Source of the DNA: an uncultured Gemmatimonadales bacterium
GTDB taxonomy: Bacteria; Gemmatimonadota; Gemmatimonadetes; Gemmatimonadales; GWC2-71-9
Reading direction: 5' to 3'
NCBI GenBank assembly: GCA_963715665.1
Contig: OY970263.1
Span: 253,514 to 317,513 of the forward strand
Length of the DNA: 64,000 bases
A program made the position numbers and the translations under genes. This document shows, in pieces, positions 1-46,627 of this stretch; position 1 is the stretch's first letter, and every line of letters begins with the position of its first letter. The notes beneath the pieces were generated by a model. It saw nothing but the letters and a program-made list of their open reading frames with translations. It ran no database searches and was not told where the DNA came from.

Positions 1-581
1 GCAATCTCCGCGATGAGGTGATCCCGTTGGGCCGGACTGAGGGAAGCCGTATCGATCCGTTCCAATGCCACATCTGCGGAGTCGATCGAACCCACCTCGA
101 TCTCCAGGCGGATCCGGGTCGTCTCTAGCGACGTCGGGAGCACGGCGCTCCTGGCGGTTAGCGCGCGCAATTGCGTCAATTCGCGAGCTGGTGCCAACCA
201 AATGTATGGATACGGTGTAATCGCTTCGAGCTGTTCCGCGCTCCAGGAATTACCACTGTCGCTGGCGAGCAGTTGTCGAAGTGCGAGCACGGCCGGTGCG
301 CGCCACAGGGCTTCGCGCCCGGTGCGGGACGCCTCGGGCGGTGAGATCGGAGCGGCCATGGCGAGTGCGACTTGTGCCGCGAGGCTATCCAGGGGCGCAT
401 CCCGGGAGTTCCGTTGAGAGTCCTCGATCAGCCGCGAGGCGATTGGCTGCAATGCGGCTCGTGCCGCGGTGTCACCGTGCAAGACCATGGTGATCAGCGC
501 GTCCAACGTGGTGTCGGCAGCCCCGTCCCGGGCTGTGCCGTGACCGACGCAGCCAGCTATCAAGCAAGCGACGACGAACAC
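1..581 (-). CDS. putative lipoprotein, N-terminal part only (runs off left edge)
   Basis: My own minus-strand translation: GTG at 581, then FVVACLIAGC (lipobox-like), with the frame open to position 1. It is absent from the ORF track because it has no stop in the window. It lies directly downstream of the Cys-rich peptide gene. Confidence 0.4.
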   Translation of the reverse strand, partial: MFVVACLIAGCVGHGTARDGAADTTLDALITMVLHGDTAARAALQPIASRLIEDSQRNSRDAPLDSLAAQVALAMAAPISPPEASRTGREALWRAPAVLALRQLLASDSGNSWSAEQLEAITPYPYIWLAPARELTQLRALTARSAVLPTSLETTRIRLEIEVGSIDSADVALERIDTASLSPAQRDHLIAEI

Positions 582-681
582 CTGACCTCCATCGAAGCTC
601 CGGCGCTGCCCACGGGCCGACGATACACGATGCGACGCTCGGCGACAAGAGTCGTTGATCGATGAGTCACCTCACGCCGCG

Positions 682-984
682 TCAGAACACCCAGCATTGA
701 ACGTCGAAGTCGCAACCTGGCCCGCCGGCGTTGCAAGACGCTTCGACGTCGTCGCGGCTGACACCACCGCAGCCATAGTCTTCGGCGAGAATGGCAACGC
801 AAGCGTCGTAAGGATCATCGGTTGCGCAGGCTTCCCACGCCACGGAGTCGTCTTCGTTCACGCATGCAGAGTAGAAGCCAAAATCGCAGGACGGCCAAGC
901 CGCGACGGCTCGAGAGGGGAGGGTCAGCCCACCGACCGCCACTACGATGGCGCTAAGCATGGTGACGACGGAGCGTTTCGACAT
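682..984 (-). CDS. secreted acidic Cys-rich small protein (precursor-like), family member 1
   Basis: 100-aa ORF with AAGGAGG 6 nt upstream of the ATG. N-terminal signal peptide (cleavage guessed after SRAVA). The 72-aa mature part has 8 Cys and many D/E. Confidence 0.6.
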   Translation of the reverse strand: MSKRSVVTMLSAIVVAVGGLTLPSRAVAAWPSCDFGFYSACVNEDDSVAWEACATDDPYDACVAILAEDYGCGGVSRDDVEASCNAGGPGCDFDVQCWVF

Positions 985-1085
985 GTTGTCCTCCTTTTGG
1001 TGGAGTAATGGGGTGCGCCGTTCCGGTATTCAGTTGCGGTCATGCCGGTGACTCGGATCAGACCGGCCCGGCGACCGATGTAGGG

Positions 1086-1769
1086 CTACGCTGATGTGGC
1101 GGACTTAATTGCGGCGATCACCAGTCGGTTCAATGACGCGGAATCGGGCGCCCCCGGAAGTCGGAGGCCGTTGATCAACAGTGTCGGTGTGCCGCGCCCA
1201 CCGAGCTTGCGCGCCGCCGCAGAGTCGATGTCGATGGCAATCACGGGCCCGGTTCGGGAGGCACATGTTGCGAAGGCTCCGGTATCAGCCACGCCCGCAT
1301 CTCGCGCGAAACTCATGAATGATTTGAGTCCCAGTGAATCCTGCTTCTGGTAGAGCGCGTCGTGATACGCTTCGAATTGCCCCTGCGCTCCAGCACATTC
1401 TGCCGCCCGGGCAGCCGGGTAGGCGAACCGATGATAGGAAAGTGGCCAGTTCCGGAAGACGACCTGAACGTCGTTTGGATACTTGTTCCGGATATACCGC
1501 AGCGGGCCGAGTTCGAACTTCCTGCACACCGGGCACTCGAAGTCCGCGAATTCGACGATTGTCACCGGGGCATTGGCCGGGCCCATCCGATGGCCGACCG
1601 CCGCATATTGGCGCCAGTCGGGGACCTGAACGGGCGTCGTTGGGCCCCGTGTAGCGTCGCCGGCCGGCGGCTTGTGAAGGGAGTCACGGACCCGCAGGGT
1701 GGTGACCACGACGGCGCAGGCAACCGCAACTACCATGAACGTCTGTTGGACGGCCTCACCAGGTTTCAT
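1086..1769 (-). CDS. membrane-anchored DsbA-family thiol:disulfide oxidoreductase
   Basis: C-terminal 227 aa of ORF 1086..2540. Internal ATG at 1769, followed by a TM helix (FMVVAVACAVVVTTL) and FADFECPVC (CxxC). Close paralogue of 40388..41065, which starts at the equivalent position. Confidence 0.75.
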   Translation of the reverse strand: MKPGEAVQQTFMVVAVACAVVVTTLRVRDSLHKPPAGDATRGPTTPVQVPDWRQYAAVGHRMGPANAPVTIVEFADFECPVCRKFELGPLRYIRNKYPNDVQVVFRNWPLSYHRFAYPAARAAECAGAQGQFEAYHDALYQKQDSLGLKSFMSFARDAGVADTGAFATCASRTGPVIAIDIDSAAARKLGGRGTPTLLINGLRLPGAPDSASLNRLVIAAIKSATSA

Positions 1770-2540
1770 CGTCTTCCCCCCGCGGCCGTTCTCCCGGATC
1801 TGGACGAGCCATCGTGCCCCCCCCCCCCGCCTCACCCGGGCCCGGATCCGCTCCTTGACCCGCCTGACAAGCCTGCGCTGTTCGGCCGGCGGACGGTCGG
1901 TGATGCCCAGCACATCGGCGTAGACCTTGGTCCTTCGCTCGCCCTCACCCATCAGCTCCCAGACCCTGTGCTCGGCGGCACTCCAGTTGGCTCGATGTTC
2001 CGCGCAGACGGTGGGAGTCCCGCCGGTGGTAATCACTTCCTGTAATACCTTCCCCGCCGGGCCGAGAAGTGCAACAACCCGGGTGTCAGCGTCCCGCCGA
2101 CGCCGGGCGTGTTCCGCGGCGTAACGCCACTCCCGGCGCTTGAGCCGGCCCTCGCGGCGCAGGCCGTTGAGCAGGTTCCGCCAGGCGGCCAGCCGCAGGT
2201 GGGCCATCACCATTCGGCCATCGGACGCGTTCGCGCCGGCCGGATGCTGGATATACGCCATCACGGCGTCAGTCGCGGCGTCCTGCGCGAGTGATGCGTC
2301 AATGCGCGGCCGATGGGCGGTCAGGTAGGTAACCAGCCACGGATGGACCATGGCCGCGAGTCGCTGGCCGACGTTGTCATCTCCGGCGAGCAGCTGCTGG
2401 TGCAGTTCGGCGATGCGGTCGAAGGCCGGCTCGGTCAACGGGCAACCGCGTCCTGTTGGTGTACGAGCAAGGTAATACGAGCGGAGCGTACGGATGTCAA
2501 GCGGAAGGTACACCAGGGGCACGATCCCCTTGGCAGCCAC
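1770..2540 (-). CDS. sigma-70/ECF-like regulator domain (in this assembly fused in frame to the DsbA-like ORF)
   Basis: N-terminal 257 aa of ORF 1086..2540. Region-2-like (DAATDAVMAYI...AAWRNLLNGLRRE) and region-4-like (VYADVLGITDRPPAEQRRLVRRVKERIRARV) patterns recognised by eye. There is no stop before the DsbA start, only a G12 tract. Confidence 0.45.
1817..1828. repeat. C12/G12 homopolymer tract at the sigma-like/DsbA junction
   Basis: Counted directly: 12 consecutive C on the + strand. Confidence 0.95.
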
Positions 2541-29284: not shown

Positions 29285-30817
29285 TTGCTCTCCCGCATCC
29301 ACTCCGCCACGGTGCTCGGCGTCGAGGCGCTCGCCGTCGACGTCGAGATCGACATTGCCAACGGCCTGCCGTCGTTCACCACGGTCGGGTTGCCGGTGGG
29401 CGCGGTCAAGGAAGGGCGGGAGCGTGTCGCGGCGGCGCTCCAGAACGCCGGCTTCCAGCTGCCGCTGCGGCGGATCACCGTGAACCTGGCGCCGGCCGAC
29501 GTGCAGAAGCGCGGCAGCGCGTTCGACCTGGCCGTCGCCGTGGGGATCCTCGCCGCGAGCGGCCAGATCTCCGACGACCGGCTGCATCGTTCGTTGCTGC
29601 TGGGCGAGCTGGGACTGGAAGGCGACCTGCGGCCGGTCCGCGGCGCGCTGCCGATTGCGCTGGCGGCGCGGGGGTTCGGGTGCGACGAGCTGATCCTGCC
29701 GCAGGCCAACGTGGCCGAAGCGGCGGTGGTGGGCGGGGTGTCGGTGCGCGGGGCGGCGAGCCTCACGGCGGTATGCCGGCACCTCACCGGTGAGGCGCCG
29801 CTGGCGGCGGTGCGCACCGACGCGGCGGCACTGATGGCGGAATTGCCGCAGAGCGATGTGGATTTTGCCGAGGTGAAGGCGCAGGGGGCGGCAAAACGGG
29901 CGATGGAGGTGGCGGCGGCGGGGGCGCACAACCTGTTGCTGATCGGTCCGCCCGGGGCGGGCAAGACGATGCTGGCGCGGCGGCTGCCGACGATCCTGCC
30001 GTCGATGTCGCTGGCCGAAGCGCTCGACGTGACGCGGATTCACAGTGTGGCGGGGTTGTTGCCGGCGGGGCAGGCGCTGGTGACGCGGCGTCCGTTCCGG
30101 GCGCCGCACCACACCGTCTCGTACGCCGGGCTGATCGGTGGTGGGGCGATTCCGCGGCCCGGTGAGGTGTCGCTGGCGCATCACGGGGTGCTCTTTCTCG
30201 ACGAAGTGGCCGAGCTGTCGAGCAACGTGCTGGAAGTACTGCGGCAACCGCTGGAGGACGGGCAGGTCACCATCTCGCGGGCGGCGATGACGCTGGCGTA
30301 TCCGGCGCGGTTCCTGCTGGTGGCGGCGATGAATCCCTGTCCCTGCGGCTACCTGGGTGACGCGACGCGGCAGTGCAGCTGTTCGCCGATGGCGGTGCAG
30401 CGGTACCGCGCGAAGATCTCCGGGCCGTTGCTCGACCGGGTGGACATCCACCTGAGTGTCCCGCCGGTGGCCTACGACGATCTCACCGCGCGCAAGGCAG
30501 CGGAATCGAGTACCGTGGTGCGCCAGCGGGTGGAAGCGGCGCGGGCGCGGCAGCTGGAGCGGTTCCGGGAGGTGCGCGGGGTGTATGCCAATGCCCACAT
30601 GGGACCGCGGGAGCTGGCGAAGTTCGTGCGGACCGACGCGGCGACGGATGCGGTACTGAAGCAGGCAATCGTCAAGCTGGGGCTTTCGGCGCGGGCGTAT
30701 CACCGCGTGCTCAAACTGGCGCGGACACTGGCGGATCTGGAGGGGGTGGAGGACGTGGGGCCGCAGCATGTGGGGGAGGCGATCCAGTATCGGGTGCTGG
30801 ACCGGGGGGAGGGGTGA
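29285..30817 (+). CDS. comM: YifB/ComM family Mg-chelatase-like ATPase (intact)
   Basis: 510 aa with GGAGG before the TTG start. Lon-like N-terminus, AAA+ core (LLIGPPGAGKTM, VLFLDE), the NPCPCGY motif and a C-terminal helical domain. Confidence 0.9.
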   Translation: MLSRIHSATVLGVEALAVDVEIDIANGLPSFTTVGLPVGAVKEGRERVAAALQNAGFQLPLRRITVNLAPADVQKRGSAFDLAVAVGILAASGQISDDRLHRSLLLGELGLEGDLRPVRGALPIALAARGFGCDELILPQANVAEAAVVGGVSVRGAASLTAVCRHLTGEAPLAAVRTDAAALMAELPQSDVDFAEVKAQGAAKRAMEVAAAGAHNLLLIGPPGAGKTMLARRLPTILPSMSLAEALDVTRIHSVAGLLPAGQALVTRRPFRAPHHTVSYAGLIGGGAIPRPGEVSLAHHGVLFLDEVAELSSNVLEVLRQPLEDGQVTISRAAMTLAYPARFLLVAAMNPCPCGYLGDATRQCSCSPMAVQRYRAKISGPLLDRVDIHLSVPPVAYDDLTARKAAESSTVVRQRVEAARARQLERFREVRGVYANAHMGPRELAKFVRTDAATDAVLKQAIVKLGLSARAYHRVLKLARTLADLEGVEDVGPQHVGEAIQYRVLDRGEG

Positions 30818-30916
30818 GGGCGGGGGCGGCACAGGGGCCACCGATCAACGCTTGACTGTCGGGCAACCTGGCTGCGAGGCCGGGTTGACACGGGTTGCAC
30901 CAGCCGGTACCGTTGA

Positions 30917-30946
30917 ACGCCACGCCACGCCACGCCACGCCACGCC
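30917..30946. repeat. pentanucleotide tandem repeat (ACGCC)x6
   Basis: Counted directly. The paralogous site at 47229-47273 has 9 units. Confidence 0.9.
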
Positions 30947-30957
30947 ATGGTGGTGTG

Positions 30958-31674
30958 ATGCGCTCGCCGGAGGTTGGTGGCCCTAAGTCGAGGCGTCGAC
31001 CGATGACTGTGTGCTGCCTGCTAACCGGCGAACCGACGGCGATTGACGCGGGGCCGCCTGCACCGCGCCCCCTGGGCACAGTGTTCGTGGTTCCGGGCGG
31101 CGATGATGATCTGGCGCGAGTCGCCGAGTCCGTCGACCAGTGGCGCGCCAGTCCGTGGTGCCCGACGGTGCTGGTCGGCGCCGATAACGTTACGCCTCGG
31201 ACGCTGGACCTGCTGGTTCCCTCTGCAATGCATGTAACCCCGCTTTGCGGTGAGGCCTTGCACCCGGTCGCCGAAATCAGGAACGGGATCGGTCAGCGCC
31301 GGATTCCCGACGCCACCGATGTTGCCGCCTACATCGCGTTCAGGACATCGCTCGGCCTCGCCAACCTGTACTGCGACATACGCGATTCGGCGGGCGACGC
31401 CGACTTTCTGCGCCGATCGCTCCGGAGGTACGGAGCATGGCTGCCCCACGATTGGCGGGCACTCGGGAGTTGCCTGGAGCTGGTCGCACGCGCGGTCGCG
31501 GCCGGGCATTCGGAGGCCATGGCGGCGGAGCTGGCGGGCGTGGACGTCAAGACGGTCTCGCGGTGGTGCCGTCGGTGCTTCGGGCTGACCTGGCGGGAGC
31601 TCGTGGGAATGGACGCCTGGGAGGCGGCGCTGGAGGCCGCTCTGCGGACGGGTGGATATGTAACAGACCGCTGA
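30958..31674 (+). CDS. island-borne HTH regulator (AraC-like C-terminal HTH), copy 1
   Basis: Near-identical paralogue of 47291..48007. The C-terminus (AAELAGVDVKTVSRWCRRCFGLTWRELV) is HTH-like. The start is uncertain: track TTG 30895 runs through the repeat, and ATG 30958 or 31003 are alternatives. Confidence 0.6.
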   Translation: MRSPEVGGPKSRRRPMTVCCLLTGEPTAIDAGPPAPRPLGTVFVVPGGDDDLARVAESVDQWRASPWCPTVLVGADNVTPRTLDLLVPSAMHVTPLCGEALHPVAEIRNGIGQRRIPDATDVAAYIAFRTSLGLANLYCDIRDSAGDADFLRRSLRRYGAWLPHDWRALGSCLELVARAVAAGHSEAMAAELAGVDVKTVSRWCRRCFGLTWRELVGMDAWEAALEAALRTGGYVTDR

Positions 31675-36153: not shown

Positions 36154-36402
36154 TCACCGGGCCACCGAGGGGACAGGCGGCGGTTCGCACCCCAGGAAGG
36201 CGGCGATTGCCGGGCGGGTCGCTGGCACCGGGTCCGTCTTGCCCAACTCCCAGTTCGTCACCGTGGCCGTGTCCACGCCGATCTGGGCCGCCACCTCTCG
36301 TTGCAATAGCTCAAGATCAATCCGCCGAGCCCTGATCTCGTCCCCTAAGTGTTTGATCTGCTTGGGGTAACCCGGCTTCGGGGTGGGTGCCGTCAGCCGC
36401 AA
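36154..36402 (-). CDS. XRE-family HTH protein, island-end copy 1
   Basis: 82 aa (LGDEIRARRIDLELLQREVAAQIGVDTATVTNWELG). The TTG start lies ~16 nt from the comM-fragment junction. Three paralogous copies are present. Confidence 0.7.
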   Translation of the reverse strand: MRLTAPTPKPGYPKQIKHLGDEIRARRIDLELLQREVAAQIGVDTATVTNWELGKTDPVPATRPAIAAFLGCEPPPVPSVAR

Positions 36403-36418
36403 CGGCAGTTTGGCAACA

Positions 36419-36904
36419 AATCCCTGTCCCTGCGGCTACCTGGGTGACGCGACGCGGCAGTGCAGCTGTTCGCCGATGGCGGTGCAGCGGTACCGCGCGA
36501 AGATCTCCGGGCCGCTGCTCGACCGGGTGGATATCCACCTGAGTGTCCCGCCGGTGGCCTACGACGATCTCACCGCGCGCAAGGCAGCGGAATCGAGTAC
36601 CGTGGTGCGGCAGCGGGTGGAAGCGGCGCGGGCGCGGCAGCTGGAGCGGTTCCGGGAAGTGCGCGGGGTGTATGCCAATGCGCACATGGGTCCCAGGGAG
36701 CTGGCCAGGTTCGTGCGGACCGATGCCGCGACCGATGCGGTGCTCAAGCAGGCGATCGTCAAGCTGGGGCTGTCGGCGCGGGCGTATCACCGCGTGCTCA
36801 AACTGGCGCGGACACTGGCGGATCTGGAGGGGGTGGCCGAGGTGGGGCCGCAGCATGTGGGGGAGGCGATCCAGTACCGGGTGCTGGATCGGGGGGAGGG
36901 GTGA
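36419..36904 (+). pseudogene. comM: comM 3' fragment (copy 1)
   Basis: Matches comM 30332-30817 from NPCPCGYLGDATRQCSC to the stop, with only a few amino-acid substitutions. It lacks the 5' two thirds. Confidence 0.9.
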
Positions 36905-38693: not shown

Positions 38694-38778
38694 TGAACCA
38701 TCCTAGAGGATCGGTGTGAGCTGACCCCGGTTTGGAGGACACACCATTTAGGTGTTTTCCTTCATCTGGGAGGTCAGG

Positions 38779-39072
38779 ATGCGGACCAGGCGGCAGTTCA
38801 GTCGGGAGTATAAGCTCGAGGCAGTACGGTTGGTGCTGGAGCGCGGGGTGAGTATCGCCCAGGCGGCTCGCGATCTGGATATCCACGTGAATTCCCTGCG
38901 CAAATGGATTGACGACTTCAAGCAGGATCCGGCGCACGCGTTCCCCGGCGAGGGGCGCCAGAAGCCCGACGATGCGGAAGTGACCCGGCTGCGGCGCGAG
39001 GTGGCGCAGTTGCGGATGGAGCGTGACATCCTAAAAAAAGCCGCGGCGTACTTCGCCAAGGAAGCGACGTGA
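38779..39072 (+). CDS. IS3-family transposase OrfA
   Basis: RRQFSREYKLEAVRLVLERGVSIAQAARDLDIHVNSLRKW...ILKKAAAYFAKE. Confidence 0.85.
   Translation: MRTRRQFSREYKLEAVRLVLERGVSIAQAARDLDIHVNSLRKWIDDFKQDPAHAFPGEGRQKPDDAEVTRLRREVAQLRMERDILKKAAAYFAKEAT
39033..39040 (+). promoter_or_regulatory. programmed -1 ribosomal frameshift site (A AAA AAA G)
   Basis: A7G lies in the orfA zero frame (CTA AAA AAA GCC). The -1 frame reads straight into orfB (…VKFRFVAKYR). Confidence 0.75.
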
Positions 39073-39935
39073 AGTTCCGCTTCGTGGCGAAGTACCGGAC
39101 CACGTGGCCAGTGCGAGCGATCTGCCAGGCCTTGGCGGTCTCGCCAAGCGGCTTTTACGCCTGGCTTCGGCGCGGGCCAAGTGCGCGCGCCCGCCGGCAT
39201 GCCGCGCTGATGCCAGCGATCCGCACCGCGTTTCTGCAGAGCGATCGCACCTACGGCGCCCACAAGATCCTCCGCGATGTGCGCGAGCTGGGGCACGCGT
39301 GCGGTCGGCATCAGGTCGCCCGGCTGATGCGGGCCCAGGCGCTGCGGGCCCGTCCGCGGCGCCGCGCGGTGCCGGTGGATCGCGGGGTGCGGCCGAGCAC
39401 GGCGCCGGCGGCGAATCTGCTCGCTCGGCAATTCGTCGCCACGGCGCCGAATCAGAAATGGGTCGCCGACTTCACGTACATCTGGGCGGGCGAGGGCTGG
39501 CTCTACGTCGCGGTCGTGCTGGATCTCTTCTCGCGCCGTGTGGTGGGTTGGGCGATGCAGCCGGCCATGACGACGCAGCTCGTCACCGACGCCCTGATGA
39601 TGGCGGTATGGCGGCGCGGACACCCGCAGGCGGTGCTGCATCACTCGGACCGGGGGAGTCAGTATACGAGCGACGACTTCCAGCGCCTGCTCCGCGATCT
39701 GGGGGTGACGTGCAGTCTGAGTCGGGCGGGCAATGTGTGGGACAATTCGGTGATGGAGAGTTTCTTCTCGATCCTGAAGACCGAGCGCACCGCGCGTCGC
39801 CAGTATCGCACGCGGGCCGACGCCCGGGCCGACATCTTCGACTACATCGAGCGCTTCTACAATCCGGTCCGTCGGCATTCGACGCTCGGCTATCTCAGTC
39901 CGGTGATGTATGAACGACAGGCAGAAGTAGCTTAG
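39069..39935 (+). CDS. IS3-family transposase OrfB (DDE)
   Basis: WVADFTYIW...LHHSDRGSQYTS...GNVWDNSVMESFF is a DDE integrase-like catalytic core with no internal stops. Confidence 0.9.
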   Translation: MKFRFVAKYRTTWPVRAICQALAVSPSGFYAWLRRGPSARARRHAALMPAIRTAFLQSDRTYGAHKILRDVRELGHACGRHQVARLMRAQALRARPRRRAVPVDRGVRPSTAPAANLLARQFVATAPNQKWVADFTYIWAGEGWLYVAVVLDLFSRRVVGWAMQPAMTTQLVTDALMMAVWRRGHPQAVLHHSDRGSQYTSDDFQRLLRDLGVTCSLSRAGNVWDNSVMESFFSILKTERTARRQYRTRADARADIFDYIERFYNPVRRHSTLGYLSPVMYERQAEVA

Positions 39936-40022
39936 GCAGGTGTCCACGAACTCGGGGTCAGCTCAGTTGCCCTATCGGCTGGCGTAGCACTGCTTGGTGC
40001 ACGCAACAAGCCAGCCTGGGCG

Positions 40023-40247
40023 TTGCCTGGCTGCGACCCCGGACCCAACGCCTACTGTGTCTATGGCGATTACACCTCGTGTGAAGATTCGGGCGGTGAT
40101 GCATCAGTGTACTGTACACAGCTACAGCAGTACACGGAGTGCGCCGGGCAAGGTTCCTTCGACTACGGTGAAGAGTGCGACGATAACAGTGCGGCGTGCA
40201 ATGGCAACGGTACCCTTGCCATTTGCGACTGGGATCCTTGGTCCTGA
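40023..40247 (+). CDS. acidic Cys-rich small protein, family member 2 (5' end split by the IS)
   Basis: 8 Cys in 74 aa. The frame is open upstream to the IS end (39966) and encodes VALSAGVALLGARNKPAWA, a signal-peptide remnant. No good start codon remains on this side of the IS. Confidence 0.55.
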   Translation: MPGCDPGPNAYCVYGDYTSCEDSGGDASVYCTQLQQYTECAGQGSFDYGEECDDNSAACNGNGTLAICDWDPWS

Positions 40248-40387: not shown

Positions 40388-41065
40388 ATGAGAATTCAGA
40401 CGGCCATCGGTGAATGGGTGTCGAGGGGGTTCGTCCTGATTGCGGTCACATGCGCCGTCGTCTCGACGGTTGTGAGCCTCCGAGGGAGTGGATCGCACAG
40501 CATCAATCTTCGGGCTCCCAAGCCGAAGGTCGTCGCAGATTGGACCCAATATGAAACCGGGGGACACCGAATAGGCCCGCAAGCAGCCAAGCTGACGATT
40601 GTCGAGTTTGCTGATTTTGAGTGCCCTGTGTGCGGTCAATTTGAAAACCGAGTACTGCCGGGGTTGAGGCGAGAATTTCCGAACACAATATCGGTCGTAT
40701 TTCGCGAATGGCCGCTCGCCCAACACCACCTCGCGTATCCGGCCGCGCGCGCGGCTGAATGCGCGGGAGAGCAGGGTCGCTTCCAAGAGTATCACGATCT
40801 CCTGTACGCTAAGCAAGACTCCTTGGGCCTACTAAGCTTCGTGGACTTTGCCATCGAAGCCGGTATCCCCGATACGGCGCGATTTGCGGCTTGCAATGCA
40901 CGCCCCGGTGCTGTTAGTGCAATCGATGCCGATGTCGCCGCAGCAAGGCGTCTTGGCGGCCGCGGCACGCCGACGCTGATCGTAAACGGGCTGTTGCTTC
41001 TTGGACTGCCCGACAGCGCGGATCTTCATGATATAGTCGCGGCTCAACTGAAGAAGGCCGGCTGA
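40388..41065 (+). CDS. membrane-anchored DsbA-family thiol:disulfide oxidoreductase, paralogue 2
   Basis: GGAGG upstream, a TM helix and FADFECPVC. Collinear with 1086..1769. Confidence 0.8.
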   Translation: MRIQTAIGEWVSRGFVLIAVTCAVVSTVVSLRGSGSHSINLRAPKPKVVADWTQYETGGHRIGPQAAKLTIVEFADFECPVCGQFENRVLPGLRREFPNTISVVFREWPLAQHHLAYPAARAAECAGEQGRFQEYHDLLYAKQDSLGLLSFVDFAIEAGIPDTARFAACNARPGAVSAIDADVAAARRLGGRGTPTLIVNGLLLLGLPDSADLHDIVAAQLKKAG

Positions 41066-41160: not shown

Positions 41161-42336
41161 ATGATCGGTGTGCGGGCCACAGTTGCACTTATTGGACTGC
41201 CCTCTGTGGTGCCCATGCATGGTATTGCGCAGGTCGAGCGGCACTTTGCGCTTGTCCCCGTTCTCACCATCGATAGCCCCGTGGTTGACTCTGCCATCGC
41301 GGGAGGCGTCTTCCAATCCAATGGGCAAGTTGTCCTCTTTCAGCCGCAACGTGACCGCATCATCGTTTTTGACGCCTCAGGTCATCAACTGGCGGAAACG
41401 CCGGGTCGAGGCGAAGGGAAGGGTGAGTTCATACGACTCAGCGCGGGTGGTCCCGCACCCGACGGCTTCTGGGCTTATGATGCGCTTCGAACCAGAGTCA
41501 CGCTCTTTAGGCTCAATGGATCGGTGGTTCGAAGCGTTTCGGTGCCGACCTTTAAGGCCGCGCCTTCGGGGTCGGACGCATCATTCGACATCCCAAACGG
41601 ACCATTCACATACGTCTCGGCGATTCCGTGGACGGGCGAATACCTTGTGAGCAGCGTGGTTGGGCCCGAGGCCTCGGTCCCGCGGACGTGGCGGCGCCCA
41701 GCAGGTGCCGTTCAAATCCTGGTAAATGCGTCTTCCGGTGGGATGATTCGGAACGTGGTCGCCTGGACACCGTTCGTCCGGTGCGACACGACGGTGAACG
41801 TCGCAAATGATGAGCCGATCCACACACGGATGCCATTTTGTGTACAACCCATCAGGGCCGTTGGCCCCGAAGGTCACGTTACCGCAATAGTTCAGGCAAT
41901 AATGACCGGAAGGGATAGCGTGGATTTCGTCACTACCTCGCTTGCGCCTCGCGGTGATACGGTTTTTGTGAGTCACGTTAGGGCTCGTGCCGTGCCGGTC
42001 ACGCCCCAGGCAAGAGATAGTGAAGTGACGCTGATGGGTCGAGGCAAGACTGCGGCGGAGATCGCAGCGCTTCGCCAATTGTGTCCCGCGTCGTATTCTG
42101 GACTGAAGTCGGTGGTGGTCGGCGCAGATGGTTCCGTGTGGATCGAGCAAGTAGCGGCGCGAGGCCGGCGAACATGGATTGTGCTCGACTCGAGCGGCGT
42201 CGAATGGGGACGGTCGACGCTCGCGAGAGAAATTCGGCCCAAATTTGTGGGGCTTGCGACGATGTGGGGTATTGAGGAGCACCTCAATGGCGGGAGTGTG
42301 CCAGTGCACTGGGTGATTCACCGTTCCGGGCAGTAG
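41161..42336 (+). CDS. six-bladed beta-propeller family protein, paralogue 2
   Basis: Signal-like N-terminus, IIVFDASGHQLAETPGRGEGKGEF and repeated blade-like segments. Confidence 0.65.
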   Translation: MIGVRATVALIGLPSVVPMHGIAQVERHFALVPVLTIDSPVVDSAIAGGVFQSNGQVVLFQPQRDRIIVFDASGHQLAETPGRGEGKGEFIRLSAGGPAPDGFWAYDALRTRVTLFRLNGSVVRSVSVPTFKAAPSGSDASFDIPNGPFTYVSAIPWTGEYLVSSVVGPEASVPRTWRRPAGAVQILVNASSGGMIRNVVAWTPFVRCDTTVNVANDEPIHTRMPFCVQPIRAVGPEGHVTAIVQAIMTGRDSVDFVTTSLAPRGDTVFVSHVRARAVPVTPQARDSEVTLMGRGKTAAEIAALRQLCPASYSGLKSVVVGADGSVWIEQVAARGRRTWIVLDSSGVEWGRSTLAREIRPKFVGLATMWGIEEHLNGGSVPVHWVIHRSGQ

Positions 42337-42340
42337 TCGT

Positions 42341-44185
42341 ATGCCTATCGGAGCGGCGCTGCTGTATATGGCACTGGCGCTACAGGCTGCGCCGGCCCGC
42401 GGTGGGCAACCCAATAATCCGGTGATTGACCCCCGCGGCGGTTGGTTCCGGCAGGTCAGTTGGTCGGGGCCGAGTCGCCGCGCTGCACCATCGTGTGTCG
42501 GCGGCGGAATCAATCAGCCGGACATCGATGGGATGGGTACCGACTCGCTCCTGACGCTCCAGAACGACGGTGCGACCAGCGCGGAACGCAGCGGAGCGTG
42601 GCGGGAATGGTTGCTGGTCGGTTGCGTTCGCCTCCGACTGGCGTTTCCGCTGGGTGGCGCGGTCAGGAACGCGGAGATCCTCATGCCCCGCGGAACGTCG
42701 TGGCAGACCGGCGCACGGCGGGCCTTTCTCAAGGCTGCCTTCGCTGCCCCGAGGGAGGTCGAGGCGTGGCGATCCCTCGCGTTCGCAACACTGCTCAGCG
42801 TACCAGGGGACGTACCTGTCGTCCCGCGGATGCTGCCAGATTGGAGTTCTCAGATTGTTGATTATCCGCAGACCGGCGGCCGTGTGAATCTTGAGCCGGA
42901 GACGACCGCGATCTATGGTGCGGTACGGGCGGGTGTTGTCGATCCGCTCGTATTCCGGGCGTGTCTCGTGGGGATGATCTTCGAGGGGAATCTCGGCGGC
43001 GCTCGCGATTGCGGGACGCGCGCGTTGCTCGCGGGCCAGGATTCCACCTGGCAGCTCCTGCGCCTGGCGTGGCTGTCGTACCACGAGTCGGATTCCGTTG
43101 GCGGCGATGCGGAACTTGCCGCCGCGGTGGCGGCGGCGCACGATTCCGCGAGCCGGACGCAGATCGGATGGCTCTGGGAACGAGAGCATGATCCACATGC
43201 GGCGTATTCGCCGTTTGATATTGCATTGAGCGTGCGGCCGAATCTGGGAGCGGCAGGAACGGAACTCCTGCAGAAGCGCGAGTGGCTTGCCCTTCCGGAT
43301 TCCGAGCTGACCAGATGGGTAATTGGCCAACTTGGCACCAGTGAGGGAAAGGCAACATGGAGCGATCCGCGCGCCGTCGGTCTGCATTTCTTCATGTCGT
43401 TGACACTCGGAGATGGCGGCGACTTCCGGCCATGTATCCCTGACCGTGACACGGTGGCGGTCTGTGTGAGACGCGGCAAAGCCCTTCCCCGTGACCTTGT
43501 TGCCGCCCGTTGGCGGGGCTGGGATCCGACCACCGAGGCCCCGATTTCGCTGGTTCGCTTTGTCAGGCCGTCGCAAGGCCGCGGTGAATCTGATAGCATC
43601 GAGGTTCGCCAGTGGAATGGTCCTGGCGATTCCTTGCTGGATACGATTGTGGTCTCGTCATTCGCCGCCGGGCATGACGCGGCGAGCGGGAATGATCTGA
43701 TCGTGCGCCGTCTGCCGAACGAACGCCATTGGAGTGTCGTGTTGGCGCCAACGGCGTCAACTGACGCACCGATGACATTCCAGGAGAGCCAGGACGCGCT
43801 CGGTACGTCCGGCGCCATCGCGTTGTCGGATGTTGCGATCGGCCCGGCATCTGCTGTGGCACCGTCCAGCGCGGTTTGCGGTGAGACGTTCGTTGTAAGG
43901 CCGCGGATTGACCGGAACGCTGGCGCGACGGTGTGCTATCAGGTCCGCAGCAGACAAGTGCCGATCGCGATCGCAATTACTGAGACGGTGATGGCGACGA
44001 CGGGTGGGTCGCATCCGTCGGTCGCGATCAGGACGTCACGCACGCTTGGTGCGACGACAACGACCGTTGCAACAGCTGTCGATTTGCGACACTTGCGTCC
44101 GGGCTCATATCGGCTCGTCATCGAGATCGGCGAGGACCCGAAGTCTCCGGGAGCGCGGGCGATTACCAAGTTCGAATTGTACTGA
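42341..44185 (+). CDS. hypothetical secreted protein (614 aa), no recognised domain
   Basis: Starts 5 nt after the propeller stop and has a signal-like N-terminus. I recognised no family motif. Confidence 0.5.
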   Translation: MPIGAALLYMALALQAAPARGGQPNNPVIDPRGGWFRQVSWSGPSRRAAPSCVGGGINQPDIDGMGTDSLLTLQNDGATSAERSGAWREWLLVGCVRLRLAFPLGGAVRNAEILMPRGTSWQTGARRAFLKAAFAAPREVEAWRSLAFATLLSVPGDVPVVPRMLPDWSSQIVDYPQTGGRVNLEPETTAIYGAVRAGVVDPLVFRACLVGMIFEGNLGGARDCGTRALLAGQDSTWQLLRLAWLSYHESDSVGGDAELAAAVAAAHDSASRTQIGWLWEREHDPHAAYSPFDIALSVRPNLGAAGTELLQKREWLALPDSELTRWVIGQLGTSEGKATWSDPRAVGLHFFMSLTLGDGGDFRPCIPDRDTVAVCVRRGKALPRDLVAARWRGWDPTTEAPISLVRFVRPSQGRGESDSIEVRQWNGPGDSLLDTIVVSSFAAGHDAASGNDLIVRRLPNERHWSVVLAPTASTDAPMTFQESQDALGTSGAIALSDVAIGPASAVAPSSAVCGETFVVRPRIDRNAGATVCYQVRSRQVPIAIAITETVMATTGGSHPSVAIRTSRTLGATTTTVATAVDLRHLRPGSYRLVIEIGEDPKSPGARAITKFELY

Positions 44186-44481: not shown

Positions 44482-44730
44482 TCACCTGGCCACCTGGGGG
44501 GCAGGTGGCGGGTCGCAGCGCAGGAAGGCGAAGATCGCCTGGCGGGTTGCTGTCGCCGGGACCGTATTGCCCAACTCCCAGTTCCTTATGGTCGCCTTGT
44601 CCACGCCCATCTGGACCGCCACCTCTCGTTGCAGCAGCCCAAGGTCGATCCGCCGCGCTCTGATCTGGTCCCCTAAGTGCTTGATCTGCTTGGGGTAACC
44701 CGGCTTCGGGGTCGGTGCCGTCAGCCGCAA
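44482..44730 (-). CDS. XRE-family HTH protein, island-end copy 2
   Basis: 82 aa, a paralogue of 36154..36402 with scattered substitutions. Confidence 0.7.
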   Translation of the reverse strand: MRLTAPTPKPGYPKQIKHLGDQIRARRIDLGLLQREVAVQMGVDKATIRNWELGNTVPATATRQAIFAFLRCDPPPAPQVAR

Positions 44731-46069: not shown

Positions 46070-46627
46070 TCAGGTGCCGGACTCGGCCTCGGTTACCGGG
46101 CGTGTCCCGGAATGGGGCTTTCGCCAGTCTTGACGATCTGACGGGGCACGGAATGTCGACTGGATGTGTCGGCGCGTCCCGATCGTCCATCCGCCTGCAC
46201 CGAAGGCACCGGGACGCGAAGAGACCTTGGGCGGAAGGATCGATGAGCGGGCTGATCTTTGGCGCGACCACAGCTGTCTCGGGACGGTCCCTCGCGTCCG
46301 GTGCCTCTCCCACGGGTTGAGCGGTTGACCCTTCAGGGTCAAGGACCACCCTTGGATAGCCGGAGCCCGGCGTACGGCCTCACTGGGCGTCGCGGGGGCG
46401 GGGAACGGGTCGTACCCCAGGAACGCGACGATCGCGGGATAGGCGGCCGTCATCGGGGTCGTGTGGCCCAACTCCCAGTTCGTCACCGTGGCCGTGTCCA
46501 CGCCGATCTGGGCCGCCACCTCTCGTTGCAGTAGCTCAAGATCAATCCGCCGAGCCCTGATCTCGTCCCCTAAGTGTTTGATCTGCTTGGGGTAACCCGG
46601 CTTCGGGGTGGGTGCCGTCAGCCGCAA
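46070..46627 (-). CDS. XRE-family HTH protein, island-end copy 3 (C-terminally extended ORF)
   Basis: The first ~75 aa are near-identical to copy 1. The remaining ~100 aa are not conserved and may be read-through of a lost stop. Confidence 0.55.
   Translation of the reverse strand: MRLTAPTPKPGYPKQIKHLGDEIRARRIDLELLQREVAAQIGVDTATVTNWELGHTTPMTAAYPAIVAFLGYDPFPAPATPSEAVRRAPAIQGWSLTLKGQPLNPWERHRTRGTVPRQLWSRQRSARSSILPPKVSSRPGAFGAGGWTIGTRRHIQSTFRAPSDRQDWRKPHSGTRPVTEAESGT

What the first reader, a model, noticed from the sequence alone, without database searches (positions are those of the whole stretch)
1..2540. Cassette 1 outside the comM array: sigma-like regulator, DsbA-like, Cys-rich peptide, lipoprotein
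The minus-strand operon reads: a sigma-70/ECF-like domain (2540-1770), a TM-anchored DsbA with CPVC (1769-1086), a 100-aa ORF with a strong SD, a signal peptide and 8 Cys (984-682), then a lipoprotein gene running off the window (581-1). The DsbA here is collinear with the copy at 40388, and the peptide shares the family features. So the peptide/DsbA pair also exists away from the comM array, here with a sigma-type regulator instead of an AraC-type one.
Basis: partly seen in the sequence, partly recalled or inferred. Interest (0 to 1): 0.65.

Follow-up and report, generated by a model that had tools for sequence, protein, structure and literature searches.

The report
Sigma-like regulator, DsbA, cysteine-rich peptide cassette
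A real, fast-evolving four-gene envelope cassette in a Gemmatimonadales genome (a divergent ECF-type sigma-like regulator, a membrane-anchored disulfide-forming enzyme, an exported 8-cysteine peptide of an undescribed family and a large secreted protein). It most likely makes and folds a secreted disulfide-rich peptide, but its function is untested.

Summary
The four minus-strand ORFs are real. 1769-1086 is a membrane-anchored DsbA-family protein (Thioredoxin_4, E 5e-23, CPVC), 57% identical and collinear with the copy at 40388. 984-682 is a 100-aa precursor with a strong SD and a signal peptide. Its 71-aa acidic mature part has 8 Cys. Three other Gemmatimonadales peptides next to this DsbA type show the same 8-Cys pattern, and none matches a known family. 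The upstream 207 aa give no direct sigma HMM hit. They do belong, full length, to a family of over 2000 clusters in which 30 of 40 sampled members hit TIGR02937 (ECF sigma), and the AF2 model retrieves sigma factors. The last gene is not a demonstrable lipoprotein. It is a 708-aa secreted protein with helical repeats, a GWxTD-like region and beta-sandwiches, and no propeller follows it directly. As sequenced, sigma and DsbA form one frame because of a G12 tract. G11 restores two genes with an ATGA overlap, as in the orthologous locus, which has G11 at the same codon. The flanking genes are 88-91% identical to that orthologue, but the cassette is only 37-66% identical, with the peptide lowest. 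Best reading: a hypervariable, possibly phase-variable, module for oxidative folding of a secreted peptide.

The parts
2471..2500 (-). Conserved promoter-like element TTGACA-N17-TATTACC upstream of the sigma-like gene. The conserved leader continues to about 2451 (CTTGCTCGTACACCAACAGGA).
   Evidence: It is nearly invariant upstream of all three sigma-like genes (window, L002-A, L002-B), although the reading frames differ, so it is non-coding. It is unique in the window (0 expected by chance) and occurs in the fetched loci only at those sites. The generic promoter scan did not call it, because the -10 hexamer ends in C.
1770..2438 (-). Sigma-like (divergent ECF-type) regulator. The probable start is TTG 2438. 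About 207 aa lie before the G tract, forming a sigma2-like and a sigma4-like helical domain joined by a disordered linker.
   Evidence: There is no direct Pfam or NCBIfam sigma hit. It is 56% identical to the stand-alone 220-aa P0002. It is 31% identical, over its full length, to P0003, which hits TIGR02937 across residues 30-203 at E 9e-11. A profile search finds 2130 cluster representatives, all about 200-220 aa, and 30 of 40 sampled members hit TIGR02937. The AF2 model has pLDDT 77. The best-ranked Foldseek PDB matches, and most of the first 50, are sigma factors; the SigC sigma2 domain gives TMt 0.73 and rmsd 2.3.
1817..1828 (-). G12 homopolymer (C12 on the + strand) at codon 204 of the sigma-like ORF. 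It sets the frame relationship between the sigma-like gene and DsbA.
   Evidence: It is the only homopolymer of 8 nt or more in the 64-kb window. G11 tracts sit at the identical nucleotide position (nt 610) in both sigma-like genes of L002. In a frame simulation, 11 or 14 G give a 223-224-aa sigma whose TGA overlaps the DsbA ATG, 10 or 13 G give 226-227 aa, and 12 G gives the 450-aa fusion.
1086..1769 (-). Membrane-anchored DsbA-family thiol:disulfide oxidoreductase (227 aa from ATG 1769). The TM or signal anchor is at about 1742-1689, the CPVC active site at 1535-1524, and a GTPT cis-Pro loop lies near the C-terminus.
   Evidence: Pfam Thioredoxin_4 E 4.6e-23 and DSBA E 9.5e-10. The closest solved relatives are 3gyk (E 2.7e-16), the 4pwo/4pwp chains deposited as 'DsbA', chains deposited as copper- or metal-resistance proteins (6nen, 6mhh) and 'Suppression of copper sensitivity protein' (4gxz), and BdbD. 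It is 57% identical to 40388-41065, 59% to the L002 orthologue, 61% to L012 and 81% to the partial copy in L010. All homologues begin about 10 aa before the TM segment.
990..996 (-). Shine-Dalgarno sequence AAGGAGG, 5 nt upstream of the peptide ATG.
   Evidence: Read directly from the sequence. GGAG(G) is the only conserved block in the region upstream of the peptide gene in the window, L002 and L012.
682..984 (-). Precursor of a secreted, acidic 8-Cys peptide (100 aa: signal peptide of about 29 aa, mature part of about 71 aa, 15 D+E against 1 K+R).
   Evidence: ORF, SD and signal peptide are shown. Four family members (window 682, L002 11514, L012 5575, window 39948) each have exactly 8 Cys in the mature part. 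They share a constant first C-x7-C spacing and the motif P-x-C-x-x-G; the three intact peptides that sit upstream of a GWxTD-like gene also end in C-[WY]-V. There is no match in Pfam, NCBIfam, PADLOC or PDB. The word-indexed search found no homologue. This gene is the divergence minimum of the locus: 35-42% DNA identity to L002.
1..581 (-). 5' 193 codons of a 708-aa secreted GWxTD-like protein (GTG 581, SD GGAGG at 590-586). The gene continues about 1.55 kb beyond the window start.
   Evidence: L001 is 100% identical to the window over 1305 bp and completes the gene. There are 32 homologues, the named ones from Gemmatimonadales, all 'hypothetical' and none with a Pfam domain. P0024 and P0035 hit TIGR04514 GWxTD_dom below threshold (E 4.6e-5 and 2e-3). 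The AF2 model (pLDDT 82.6, pTM 0.81) shows N-terminal helical repeats (18-285), a mixed alpha/beta middle region and two C-terminal beta-sandwiches. Foldseek matches only the beta-sandwich part (RbmA, transglutaminase C-terminal domains). The lipobox is not conserved.
40388..41065 (+). Paralogous type-1 DsbA inside the comM array (context for the family claim).
   Evidence: 57% identity, collinear over the full length; Thioredoxin_4 E 1.7e-22.
39948..40247 (+). Paralogous type-1 8-Cys peptide gene inside the comM array. An IS3-family insertion (38752-39935) has removed its 5' end.
   Evidence: The in-frame upstream residues VALSAGVALLGARNKPAWA form the remnant of a signal peptide directly after the IS end. 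The mature part has 8 Cys with family spacing.

Best explanation
This is a chromosomal, hypervariable envelope cassette of a Gemmatimonadales bacterium. I propose the following mechanism. (1) A divergent ECF-type sigma-like protein is made from a conserved promoter of its own and switches on, or is co-transcribed with, the downstream genes. (2) The next gene, normally translationally coupled through an ATGA overlap, encodes a DsbA-family oxidase anchored in the inner membrane with its CPVC domain in the periplasm. (3) The strongly translated third gene encodes a Sec-exported precursor. Its 71-aa acidic mature peptide is oxidised by the co-encoded DsbA to a compact fold with four disulfides. 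(4) The peptide acts outside the cytoplasm as a rapidly diversifying interaction molecule, most likely an antagonistic or recognition effector (bacteriocin-like toxin, signal or decoy). The N-terminal helical-repeat domain of the adjacent GWxTD-like secreted protein is its probable binding partner (carrier, receptor or immunity protein). (5) The G11/G12 tract at the 3' end of the regulator gene makes the junction between regulator and DsbA hypermutable.

Shown here: gene identities, family membership of the DsbA, conservation of the peptide and of the gene order, the divergence profile and the conserved tract. Inferred: co-transcription, the DsbA-peptide substrate relationship, four disulfides, peptide function, the partner role of the fourth protein, and sigma activity.
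For: DsbA identity, CPVC site and anchor.

Peptide. It has an SD and a signal peptide. Exactly 8 Cys are retained in four members at 26-35% identity. Cys spacings of 3-11 residues without CxxC or CC motifs fit disulfide knots rather than metal clusters.

Linkage. The order DsbA, 8-Cys peptide, 700-aa protein recurs in three lineages: the window, L002 and L011/L012. Other cassettes pair a DsbA with a Cys-rich peptide and a GxGPGEF propeller: window 48253-50886, L002 15220-17421 and L005 13355-15480. In every cassette the Cys-rich exported peptide travels with its own DsbA.

Regulator. Its sigma family membership is supported by transitive homology and by fold. Sigma-like genes lie next to DsbA and peptide or propeller genes in four cassettes: the window, L002-A, L002-B and L014. 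A conserved, unique promoter-like element precedes them.

Operon-like layout. All genes are on the same strand, with gaps of 101 and 100 nt, and no terminator-like site was found. L002 has an ATGA overlap between sigma and DsbA.

Hypervariability. DnaJ, GrpE and the esterase are 88-91% identical to L002. In contrast, sigma is 56%, DsbA 59%, the peptide 37% and the GWxTD-like protein 66%. DNA identity reaches its minimum (35-42%) over the peptide gene and returns to a closely matching stretch just past the GWxTD stop, about 95% by eye from the alignment. In the GWxTD-like protein, the first 100 residues are 44% identical and the last 100 are 86%, so divergence is greatest next to the peptide gene.

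G tract. It is conserved at the same nucleotide position in genes that are 56% identical, although GGG makes up only 23% of Gly codons.
Against: The regulator itself gives no direct sigma HMM hit. Foldseek E-values are only 0.1-3 for the whole model.

The cassette contains no anti-sigma factor, transporter, protease or recognisable immunity gene. There are no expression data. The terminator and promoter scans are crude.

The redox direction of the DsbA is unknown. It is about as similar to chains deposited as copper- or metal-resistance proteins (6nen, 6mhh, 4gxz) as to BdbD.

The fourth gene's close homologues P0007 and P0008 (60-63% identity) and its distant ones lack the DsbA and peptide genes upstream. 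The distant ones sit between ychF and ribosomal protein genes, so its linkage may be incidental.

A strongly acidic peptide is unusual for a membrane-active bacteriocin.

This exact cassette is known from only three lineages. The peptide family could not be searched sensitively in the large databases.

The divergence gradient could reflect a recombination breakpoint rather than co-evolution.
Confidence: 0.5

Rival explanations
1. Phase-variable tethering. The G tract is a genuine slipped-strand switch. In the G12 state the sigma-like domain is fused through the TM segment to the periplasmic DsbA and held at the membrane, acting as an anti-sigma in cis. In the G10, G11, G13 or G14 states a free sigma and a separate, translationally coupled DsbA are made. 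The cassette is then an ON/OFF or graded contingency locus.
For: The sequence as given encodes the 450-aa fusion. The tract is conserved at the same nucleotide in diverged orthologues and paralogues and is the only long homopolymer in the window. Runs of 11-12 G are intrinsically hypermutable (established knowledge). In L002-B the G11 state likewise reads through into the signal peptide of the downstream peptide. Another cassette regulator (L005 12274-12567) carries a C12 tract at codons 6-9. Hypervariable secreted or surface loci are the usual setting for contingency repeats.
Against: The difference between 12 and 11 G could be a homopolymer error. L002/L003 comes from a MAG named MFD00008.bin.1.51, and I infer, without having checked, that it and the 3.3-Mb source contig are long-read assemblies. 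No independent assembly covers the tract (L001 stops at window position 1305). An open frame of 16-25 codons is unremarkable at 68% G+C. The tract lies after the sigma4-like domain, so the regulator is intact in every frame. DsbA can still be made from its own ATG.
Confidence: 0.15
2. The unit is only three genes. The sigma-like, DsbA and peptide cassette is inserted beside an unrelated paralogue of a core Gemmatimonadales GWxTD-type periplasmic protein, and the fourth gene plays no part in the peptide's biology.
For: Homologues at 41-45% identity lie between ychF and rpsF-rpsR-rplI. Homologues at 60-63% identity (L005, L010) have no DsbA or peptide gene upstream. Other cassettes use a propeller in place of this protein.
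Against: The order DsbA, peptide, 700-aa gene is kept in three lineages that are 53-66% identical. The divergent block includes the 5' part of this gene. The gap is short (100 nt), has its own SD, and no terminator-like site was found.
Confidence: 0.2
3. Metal or redox stress module. The DsbA is a ScsC-like copper-tolerance protein, and the acidic Cys-rich peptide buffers periplasmic metal or oxidant. Both are under an ECF-type stress sigma.
For: PDB relatives include 4gxz ('Suppression of copper sensitivity protein'), 6nen ('Copper resistance protein') and 6mhh ('Metal resistance protein') at E 1e-9 to 2e-8. ECF sigmas commonly control envelope and metal stress (established knowledge). The peptide is rich in Cys, Asp and Glu.
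Against: The better PDB matches are 3gyk and chains deposited simply as 'DsbA' (4pwo, 4pwp). The peptide has no CxxC, CxC, CC or His motifs, and its spacing fits structural disulfides. A metal buffer would not be expected to be the fastest-evolving gene at a conserved site. Nor would it be expected to occur in several diverged copies per genome paired with propellers. No metal transporter or ScsB/DsbD partner is present in the cassette.
Confidence: 0.08
4. Decaying remnant. The cassette is a horizontally acquired island in decay, and the sigma-DsbA fusion is a frameshift lesion.
For: GC3 is 0.76 here against 0.86-0.94 for core genes, and G+C is 64% against about 69%. The frame is fused. The related cassette at 40023 is disrupted by an IS.
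Against: All four ORFs are intact and full length relative to their orthologues. The same cassette occupies the same chromosomal site, intact, in a second genome. The SDs and the promoter-like element are conserved. The Cys pattern is strictly retained.
Confidence: 0.07

Closest known systems
ECF (group IV) sigma-70 factors, e.g. E. coli sigmaE, B. subtilis SigW, M. tuberculosis SigK/SigC (NCBIfam TIGR02937)
   Same: It is about 205 aa long, with two helical domains joined by a linker. It is homologous over its full length to proteins that hit TIGR02937. Its fold retrieves sigmaE, SigW, SigK, SigH and SigC. The gene immediately downstream encodes a single-pass membrane protein and is (in L002) coupled by an ATGA overlap, the position an anti-sigma gene normally occupies.
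   Different: The protein itself falls below every curated sigma model (E > 1). The downstream membrane protein has only about 10 cytoplasmic residues and no anti-sigma domain. Its upstream promoter looks like TTGACA/TATTAC rather than the AAC/CGT type typical of autoregulated ECF promoters (from memory). RNA polymerase binding is untested.
Sublancin 168 locus of B. subtilis SPbeta (sunA-sunT-bdbA-sunS-bdbB), and BdbD-type oxidases (from memory; BdbD structure 3eu3 is a hit)
   Same: A secreted Cys-containing peptide is encoded together with its own thiol:disulfide oxidoreductase, in an accessory, variable part of the genome.
   Different: Sublancin uses a leader peptide with an ABC transporter and is glycosylated, and the essential partner is a DsbB-like protein. 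Here export is by a Sec signal peptide, and the enzyme is a membrane-anchored DsbA-type protein. No transporter or modification enzyme is present, and the regulator is sigma-like.
AssT-DsbL-DsbI of uropathogenic E. coli (from memory)
   Same: It is a dedicated DsbA paralogue encoded next to its specific periplasmic substrate, and that substrate is a beta-propeller. This parallels the sister cassettes in this window and in L002, L005 and L014, which pair a DsbA with a GxGPGEF propeller.
   Different: In this cassette the neighbour is a small peptide plus a GWxTD-like protein, not a propeller. No DsbB/DsbI paralogue is present.
Actinobacterial MdbA and DsbA-like oxidoreductases of the Thioredoxin_4 group (4pwo/4pwp are deposited simply as 'DsbA', and the MdbA assignment is from memory)
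   Same: It has the Thioredoxin_4 fold, a CPxC active site, a T-P cis-Pro loop and an N-terminal membrane anchor. These enzymes oxidise secreted proteins.
   Different: Those are general housekeeping oxidases, one per genome. Here at least three diverged copies in 64 kb each sit beside their own Cys-rich peptide.
Homopolymer-controlled contingency loci, and mucA (G5 tract) of P. aeruginosa (from memory)
   Same: A G-run inside a regulatory gene of a sigma pathway can change regulator output at high frequency through length changes.
   Different: The tract here is much longer (11-12 G). It lies at the 3' end of the sigma-like gene itself and changes the C-terminal tail and the coupling or fusion to the next gene, rather than truncating an anti-sigma. 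Switching has not been observed.
GWxTD domain proteins (NCBIfam TIGR04514)
   Same: Distant homologues of the 708-aa protein hit the model below threshold. The region FWxRRD...F..R...A...RW.......DDRG..V..HGDP resembles the family signature (from memory).
   Different: The window protein itself does not hit the model. The family has no known function or literature, so the comparison says nothing about mechanism.

Membership tests
ECF sigma-70 family (TIGR02937 / Pfam Sigma70_r2, Sigma70_r4) | The protein itself matches a curated sigma-70 region 2/4 or ECF model | tested here: not met
   No sigma model at E <= 1 (E <= 10 in one Pfam scan) in Pfam or NCBIfam for residues 1-257 or for the 207-aa core.
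ECF sigma-70 family (TIGR02937 / Pfam Sigma70_r2, Sigma70_r4) | Full-length homology to proteins that do match the model | tested here: met
   P0003 (31% identity, 79% coverage, E 7e-12) hits TIGR02937 over residues 30-203 at E 9e-11 (41.6 bits, cutoff 42.9) and Sigma70_r2 at E 4.5e-6. The profile finds 2130 representatives of about 200-220 aa, and 30 of 40 sampled members hit TIGR02937 at E <= 1e-3.
ECF sigma-70 family (TIGR02937 / Pfam Sigma70_r2, Sigma70_r4) | Two-domain sigma2-linker-sigma4 fold without sigma1.1 or sigma3 | tested here: inconclusive
   The AF2 model (3-sequence alignment, pLDDT 77) has two helical bundles and a disordered linker at 117-148. The best-ranked Foldseek matches, and most of the first 50, are sigma factors, and the domain-level fit is good (2o7g TMt 0.73, rmsd 2.3; 9isn_F prob 0.97). 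Whole-chain E-values are 0.1-3.
ECF sigma-70 family (TIGR02937 / Pfam Sigma70_r2, Sigma70_r4) | Co-encoded cognate anti-sigma factor | tested here: not met
   The downstream membrane protein is a DsbA with about 10 cytoplasmic residues and no anti-sigma domain, and no other candidate lies in the cassette.
ECF sigma-70 family (TIGR02937 / Pfam Sigma70_r2, Sigma70_r4) | Binds RNA polymerase core and directs promoter-specific initiation | not testable with these tools
   Needs biochemistry or ChIP.
DsbA family (Pfam Thioredoxin_4 / DSBA) | Match above the curated cutoff | tested here: met
   Thioredoxin_4 scores 82.7 bits (cutoff 23.2) and DSBA 39 bits (cutoff 25.6).
DsbA family (Pfam Thioredoxin_4 / DSBA) | CxxC active site and cis-Pro loop | tested here: met
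   CPVC lies at 1535-1524. GTPT aligns with GTPS of 3gyk.
DsbA family (Pfam Thioredoxin_4 / DSBA) | Extracytoplasmic location | tested here: inconclusive
   One N-terminal hydrophobic segment is conserved in all homologues. Topology was not predicted with a dedicated tool.
DsbA family (Pfam Thioredoxin_4 / DSBA) | Oxidase activity with a DsbB/VKOR partner | not tested
   No DsbB or VKOR was looked for. The redox direction cannot be read from the sequence.
   The window copy has MFVVACLIAG|C with no K or R. The Cys is not aligned in L002. Most of the 32 homologues have AxA-type signal peptides, and only 2 show a lipobox-like string.
GWxTD domain proteins (TIGR04514) | Match to the domain model | tested here: inconclusive
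   The window protein gives no hit. Homologues P0024 (23.9 bits) and P0035 (18.5 bits) fall below the 28-bit cutoff.
Sec-dependent disulfide-bonded bacteriocins | Sec signal peptide and conserved Cys pairs | tested here: met
   Signal peptide and 8 conserved Cys.
Sec-dependent disulfide-bonded bacteriocins | Adjacent immunity gene and antimicrobial activity | not testable with these tools
   There is no recognisable immunity gene, and activity needs an assay.
Phase-variable contingency locus | Long simple repeat within or next to a gene, conserved in position among relatives | tested here: met
   G12 in the window and G11 twice in L002, all at nt 610 of the gene. There are no other homopolymers of 8 nt or more in the window.
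Phase-variable contingency locus | Tract-length variation within a population, with a change in expression | tested here: inconclusive
   The 12 versus 11 G difference between genomes cannot be separated from assembly error. No second assembly of the tract was found.

The most novel reading that the evidence does not exclude
The conserved G11/G12 tract is a programmed slipped-strand switch. It converts a free ECF-like sigma factor into a membrane-tethered sigma-TM-DsbA fusion and back. This would give stochastic, heritable ON/OFF control of a hypervariable locus for a secreted 8-Cys peptide. The same logic (homopolymers in the regulator gene) would operate in sister cassettes, such as the C12 tract in the L005 regulator. 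It would be a new way of regulating a sigma factor (anti-sigma in cis by frameshift fusion) and the first contingency-locus system described in Gemmatimonadota.
Probability: 0.15. Interest if true: 0.8.

Novelty: new variant of a known kind. Interest (0 to 1): 0.5.

Why it matters
Gemmatimonadota are abundant soil bacteria with almost no characterised secreted effectors. This locus defines an undescribed family of exported 8-cysteine peptides. Each travels with its own DsbA, in multi-copy, rapidly diversifying cassettes that use interchangeable regulators (sigma-like, AraC, LuxR-like) and interchangeable partner proteins (GWxTD-like or beta-propeller). If the peptides are antagonistic or recognition molecules, they are a new source of disulfide-rich natural products and a handle on competition in soil communities. 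The conserved long G tract at the junction between regulator and DsbA also offers a concrete, easily tested case of possible phase variation in a phylum where none is known.

Tried and rejected
(1) Direct HMM tests of the sigma claim with Pfam and NCBIfam found no hit. The claim was kept only through family-level and fold evidence.

(2) PDB sequence searches with sigma-like profiles gave only a marginal SigK hit, E 0.17.

(3) A word-indexed homologue search with the peptide returned only the query itself. Profile searches of PDB and Pfam with four peptides found nothing meaningful.

(4) Scans of genome and metagenome collections with sigma-like alignments added only the already known L002 contig, a Planktothrix locus in an unrelated defence-island-like context, and one short JGI contig.

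(5) Extending the window's own contig leftwards retrieved only the 3.1-kb Logan contig L001. Exact look-ups of the esterase and of the stand-alone 227-aa DsbA, meant to find an independent assembly of the G tract, found nothing. A last look-up (P0011) placed the gene at a contig edge.

(6) The idea that the 708-aa protein is a relative of the 614-aa or 391-aa ORFs of the comM array was rejected. Only a short C-terminal LxPGxYRLVI motif is shared.

(7) An Rfam scan of 1-2800 found nothing.

(8) The intergenic regions upstream of the peptide and the 708-aa gene were aligned in search of an ECF-type promoter. Only the SDs are conserved.

(9) The G8 run that distinguishes L011 from L012 just upstream of DsbA is a substitution (GGGGGGGG against GGCCCGGG), not a length change.

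(10) Literature searches for GWxTD, for Gemmatimonadota Cys-rich peptides with DsbA, and for homopolymer-controlled ECF sigmas found nothing relevant.

(11) Foldseek of the 708-aa model matched only generic tandem beta-sandwich domains and gave no functional lead.

Full report
OBSERVATION. On the minus strand the window starts with a run of same-strand ORFs.

The longest is a single 484-codon frame, 2540-1086. Its C-terminal 227 residues, from ATG 1769, are a DsbA-family domain. Pfam gives Thioredoxin_4 at E 4.6e-23 and DSBA at 9.5e-10. The active site is CPVC (1535-1524), there is a GTPT cis-Pro loop, and one hydrophobic segment sits about 10 residues from that ATG. The closest solved relatives are 3gyk, the 4pwo/4pwp chains deposited as 'DsbA' (I recall these as Corynebacterium MdbA-type oxidases), copper-resistance or ScsC-like proteins, and BdbD. 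The domain is 57% identical and collinear with the copy at 40388-41065, and 31% identical to the one at 50143.

After a 101-nt gap comes a 100-codon ORF, 984-682. AAGGAGG lies 5 nt upstream of its ATG. It has a signal peptide (MSKRS, hydrophobic core, AVAA) and a 71-aa mature part with 8 Cys, 15 acidic residues and one basic residue.

After a further 100 nt, a GTG at 581 with its own GGAGG opens an ORF that runs off the window.

In a six-frame screen of the whole window for SD-led, signal-bearing, Cys-rich small ORFs, only this peptide, the one at 48280 and one antisense artefact passed.

THE REGULATOR. None of the curated sigma models hits residues 1-257 or the 207-aa core, even at E = 1. Homology rescues it.

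The word-indexed search found two relatives. P0002 is 220 aa, 56% identical and stand-alone. P0003 is 213 aa and 31% identical over 79% of the query. P0003 hits TIGR02937 (sigma70-ECF) along its whole length at E 9e-11, just under the cutoff, and Sigma70_r2 at 4.5e-6.

An exhaustive profile search found 2130 cluster representatives, all about 200-220 aa and matched end to end. Of 40 sampled members, 30 hit TIGR02937 at E <= 1e-3.

An AF2 model (pLDDT 77) shows two helical bundles separated by a disordered linker. The best-ranked Foldseek matches in the PDB, and most of the first 50, are sigma factors (sigmaE, SigW, SigK, SigH, SigL). Domain-level fits are good (SigC sigma2: TMt 0.73, rmsd 2.3 A), but whole-chain E-values are weak.

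I conclude that it is a very divergent member of the ECF-type sigma superfamily. Whether it still works as a sigma factor cannot be tested here.

A start at 2540 is unlikely. A block CCGCTTGACA-N17-TATTACCTTG.T.GTACACCA.CAGGA (2500-2451) is almost invariant upstream of all three known genes of this clade, although the reading frames differ. It is unique in the window and in the fetched loci. It looks like a promoter plus leader. The public gene call starts at TTG 2438.

THE G TRACT AND THE 'FUSION'. No stop separates the sigma-like part from DsbA, and a run of 12 G (1828-1817) is the reason. It is the only homopolymer of 8 nt or more in 64 kb.

With 11 or 14 G, the sigma-like ORF ends 223-224 aa long at a TGA that overlaps the DsbA ATG (ATGA). 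With 10 or 13 G it ends 11 nt later. Only 12 G fuses the two.

In the orthologous locus the tract is G11 at exactly the same nucleotide (nt 610), and the two genes overlap by ATGA. A second paralogue there also has G11 at that position. GGG makes up only 23% of Gly codons in this genome, so a GGG-GGG-GGG run retained in genes that are 56% identical is unlikely to be neutral.

The L002/L003 contig comes from a MAG named MFD00008.bin.1.51. From that name and the 3.3-Mb source contig I infer that both are long-read assemblies, but I have not verified this. If so, the exact tract lengths cannot be trusted. I found no independent assembly across the tract.

All DsbA homologues begin about 10 residues before the TM segment. 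The two-gene arrangement is therefore the ancestral one.

THE FOURTH GENE. A Logan contig (L001) is 100% identical to the window over 1305 bp and extends it leftwards. The gene encodes 708 aa. No propeller follows it within the roughly 250 bp available.

The protein has 32 homologues at 41-69% identity. The named ones come from Gemmatimonadales, all are 'hypothetical', and none has a Pfam domain. Two homologues hit the GWxTD domain model below threshold.

AF2 (pLDDT 82.6, pTM 0.81) gives an N-terminal helical-repeat domain (18-285), a mixed middle region with two invariant Cys, and two C-terminal beta-sandwiches. Foldseek recognises only the beta-sandwiches.

Most homologues have ordinary AxA signal peptides. 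The LIAG|C of the window copy lacks a charged n-region and is not conserved. 'Lipoprotein' is therefore not supported; 'secreted or periplasmic protein' is.

CONSERVATION AND CONTEXT. L002/L003 (uncultured Gemmatimonadales) is syntenic. DnaJ, GrpE and the esterase lie on one side. Running divergently from them are the sigma-like gene, DsbA, a 97-aa 8-Cys peptide and the 703-aa homologue.

About 0.5 kb downstream of that, L002 has a second cassette: a sigma-like paralogue, a different Cys-rich peptide, a GxGPGDF propeller and a type-2 DsbA. The first 250 bp beyond the 708-aa gene in L001 match the corresponding L002 segment closely. The window's genome probably continues in the same way.

A third lineage (L011/L012) keeps the order DsbA, 90-aa 8-Cys peptide, 707-aa protein, without a sigma-like gene.

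The four type-1 peptides share exactly 8 Cys, a constant first C-x7-C and the motif P-x-C-x-x-G. The three intact peptides next to a GWxTD-like gene also end in C-[WY]-V. Identity among them is only 26-37%. The fourth is the IS-truncated copy at 39948-40247. They match nothing in Pfam, NCBIfam, PADLOC or the PDB.

Sigma-like genes also accompany a propeller and a DsbA in the short contig L014. In L005 a small LuxR/sigma4-like regulator precedes a DsbA, a 76-aa Cys-rich peptide and a propeller.

The general pattern is a variable regulator, a DsbA of its own, an exported Cys-rich peptide and a variable secreted partner protein.

The 700-aa family is not confined to such cassettes. Homologues at 60-63% identity lack the DsbA and peptide genes upstream, and the 41-45% homologues sit between ychF and rpsF-rpsR-rplI.

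HYPERVARIABILITY. Between the window and L002, DnaJ, GrpE and the esterase are 88-91% identical. The sigma-like protein is 56%, DsbA 59%, the peptide 37% and the 708-aa protein 66% identical.

A sliding DNA comparison shows identity falling at about 2700, reaching its minimum (35-42%) over the peptide gene, and recovering to about 80% in the 3' third of the 708-aa gene. Just past the stop, a stretch of L001 again matches L002 closely, about 95% by eye from the alignment. Within the 708-aa protein, the first 100 residues are 44% identical and the last 100 are 86%.

This is a divergent block centred on the peptide, between conserved flanks. It is the signature of diversifying selection or allele exchange at a fixed site. 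Composition points the same way: G+C is 64% against about 69%, and GC3 is 0.76 against 0.86-0.94.

MECHANISM. The best-supported reading is a module that produces and oxidatively folds a secreted disulfide-rich peptide (confidence about 0.5).

The sigma-like protein, expressed from its own conserved promoter, controls or is co-transcribed with the module. The membrane-anchored DsbA introduces, probably, four disulfides into the Sec-exported peptide. The peptide is a rapidly diversifying extracytoplasmic interaction molecule. The helical-repeat N-terminus of the neighbouring secreted protein, which diverges together with the peptide, is its likely binding partner.

Gene identities, linkage, the Cys pattern, the divergence profile and the tract are shown. 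Co-transcription, the enzyme-substrate relationship, peptide function and sigma activity are inferred.

Four rivals remain. The first is a phase-variable sigma-DsbA tether (0.15). The second is a three-gene unit lying next to an unrelated GWxTD paralogue (0.2), which is compatible with most of the main model. The third is a ScsC-like metal or redox module (0.08). It is disfavoured by the Cys spacing, the hypervariability and the lack of metal genes. The fourth is a decaying island (0.07). It is disfavoured by intact ORFs and an intact orthologous cassette.

COMPARISON WITH KNOWN SYSTEMS. In logic it is closest to accessory loci that encode a secreted Cys-containing product together with a private Dsb enzyme. 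Examples are sublancin with BdbA/BdbB and AssT with DsbL/DsbI (both from memory). In layout it resembles an ECF sigma operon, but a DsbA stands where the anti-sigma gene would be. It fails or cannot complete the membership tests for a canonical ECF system, since there is no direct model hit and no anti-sigma. The same is true for a lipoprotein. It passes those for the DsbA family.

The peptide family and the cassette architecture are not in the curated libraries or the searchable literature. I rate it a new variant of a known kind. Interest is moderate (0.5). It would be higher if read-level data show that the G tract really switches.

Noticed in passing
L005:12289-12300 and L005:1634-1643: A C12 tract occupies codons 6-9 (PPPP) of the 97-aa LuxR/sigma4-like regulator that precedes another cassette of DsbA, Cys-rich peptide and propeller. 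An in-frame ATG follows the tract directly. A G10 tract lies in the spacer of a TTGACG...TAGGAT promoter-like site upstream of a 90-aa ORF. In about 215 kb examined, every homopolymer of 10 nt or more lies in or next to a regulator of such a cassette or in that promoter-like spacer.
   Followed up: partly
window 38752-40247: An IS3-family element (orfA 38752-39072, orfB 39069-39935) is inserted into the 5' end of the type-1 8-Cys peptide gene of the comM-array cassette. Only the end of the signal peptide and the mature part (39948-40247) remain, upstream of DsbA 40388.
   Followed up: partly
window 29285-30817, 36383-36904, 46608-47129: A full-length comM (Mg_chelatase, 510 aa) is followed by two nearly identical 173-aa comM 3' fragments. 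Each fragment adjoins an 82-aa Xre-like HTH ORF on the opposite strand (36154-36402, 46070-46627; a further copy at 44482-44730). This looks like a tandem array of elements integrated into the 3' end of comM.
   Followed up: partly
L002:14187-15504: The second cassette of the orthologous locus seems to have arisen by duplication. The duplicated block includes the sigma promoter element and a short divergent ORF that shares the esterase's leader and signal peptide. The two sigma-like paralogues are nearly identical in their last 90 or so residues, but have different downstream genes. With G11, the second sigma-like ORF reads in frame into the signal peptide of the type-2 peptide, giving 326-335 aa.
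   Followed up: partly
L004:6665-12924: The Planktothrix member of the sigma-like family (P0003-like) sits between a DNA methyltransferase and an ImmA/IrrE-like HExxH protein, a 419-aa ORF and a HerA-type ATPase (PADLOC HerA, E 9e-30). This is a defence-island or mobile-element context, so the family is used as a regulator of quite different accessory modules.
   Followed up: partly
L010:3806-6471: The closest relative of the window's DsbA (81% identity over 124 aa, cut by the contig end) lies downstream of homologues of window ORFs 41161-42336 and 42341-44185, and of a FitA/PIN toxin-antitoxin pair. It is not next to a sigma-like gene. The type-1 DsbA is thus shuffled among several cassette architectures.
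   Followed up: no
window 30895-31674 and 47207-48007: Two 259/266-aa ORFs, 90% identical to each other, have only a weak C-terminal HTH match (HTH_28). They stand directly after comM or after a comM fragment and upstream of cassette genes. They are candidates for a third regulator type in these islands.
   Followed up: no
L011:4823-4830 vs L012: Two JGI assemblies of the same locus differ just upstream of the DsbA start: GGGGGGGG against GGCCCGGG. This is a 3-nt substitution, not a length change, and its significance is unknown.
   Followed up: yes
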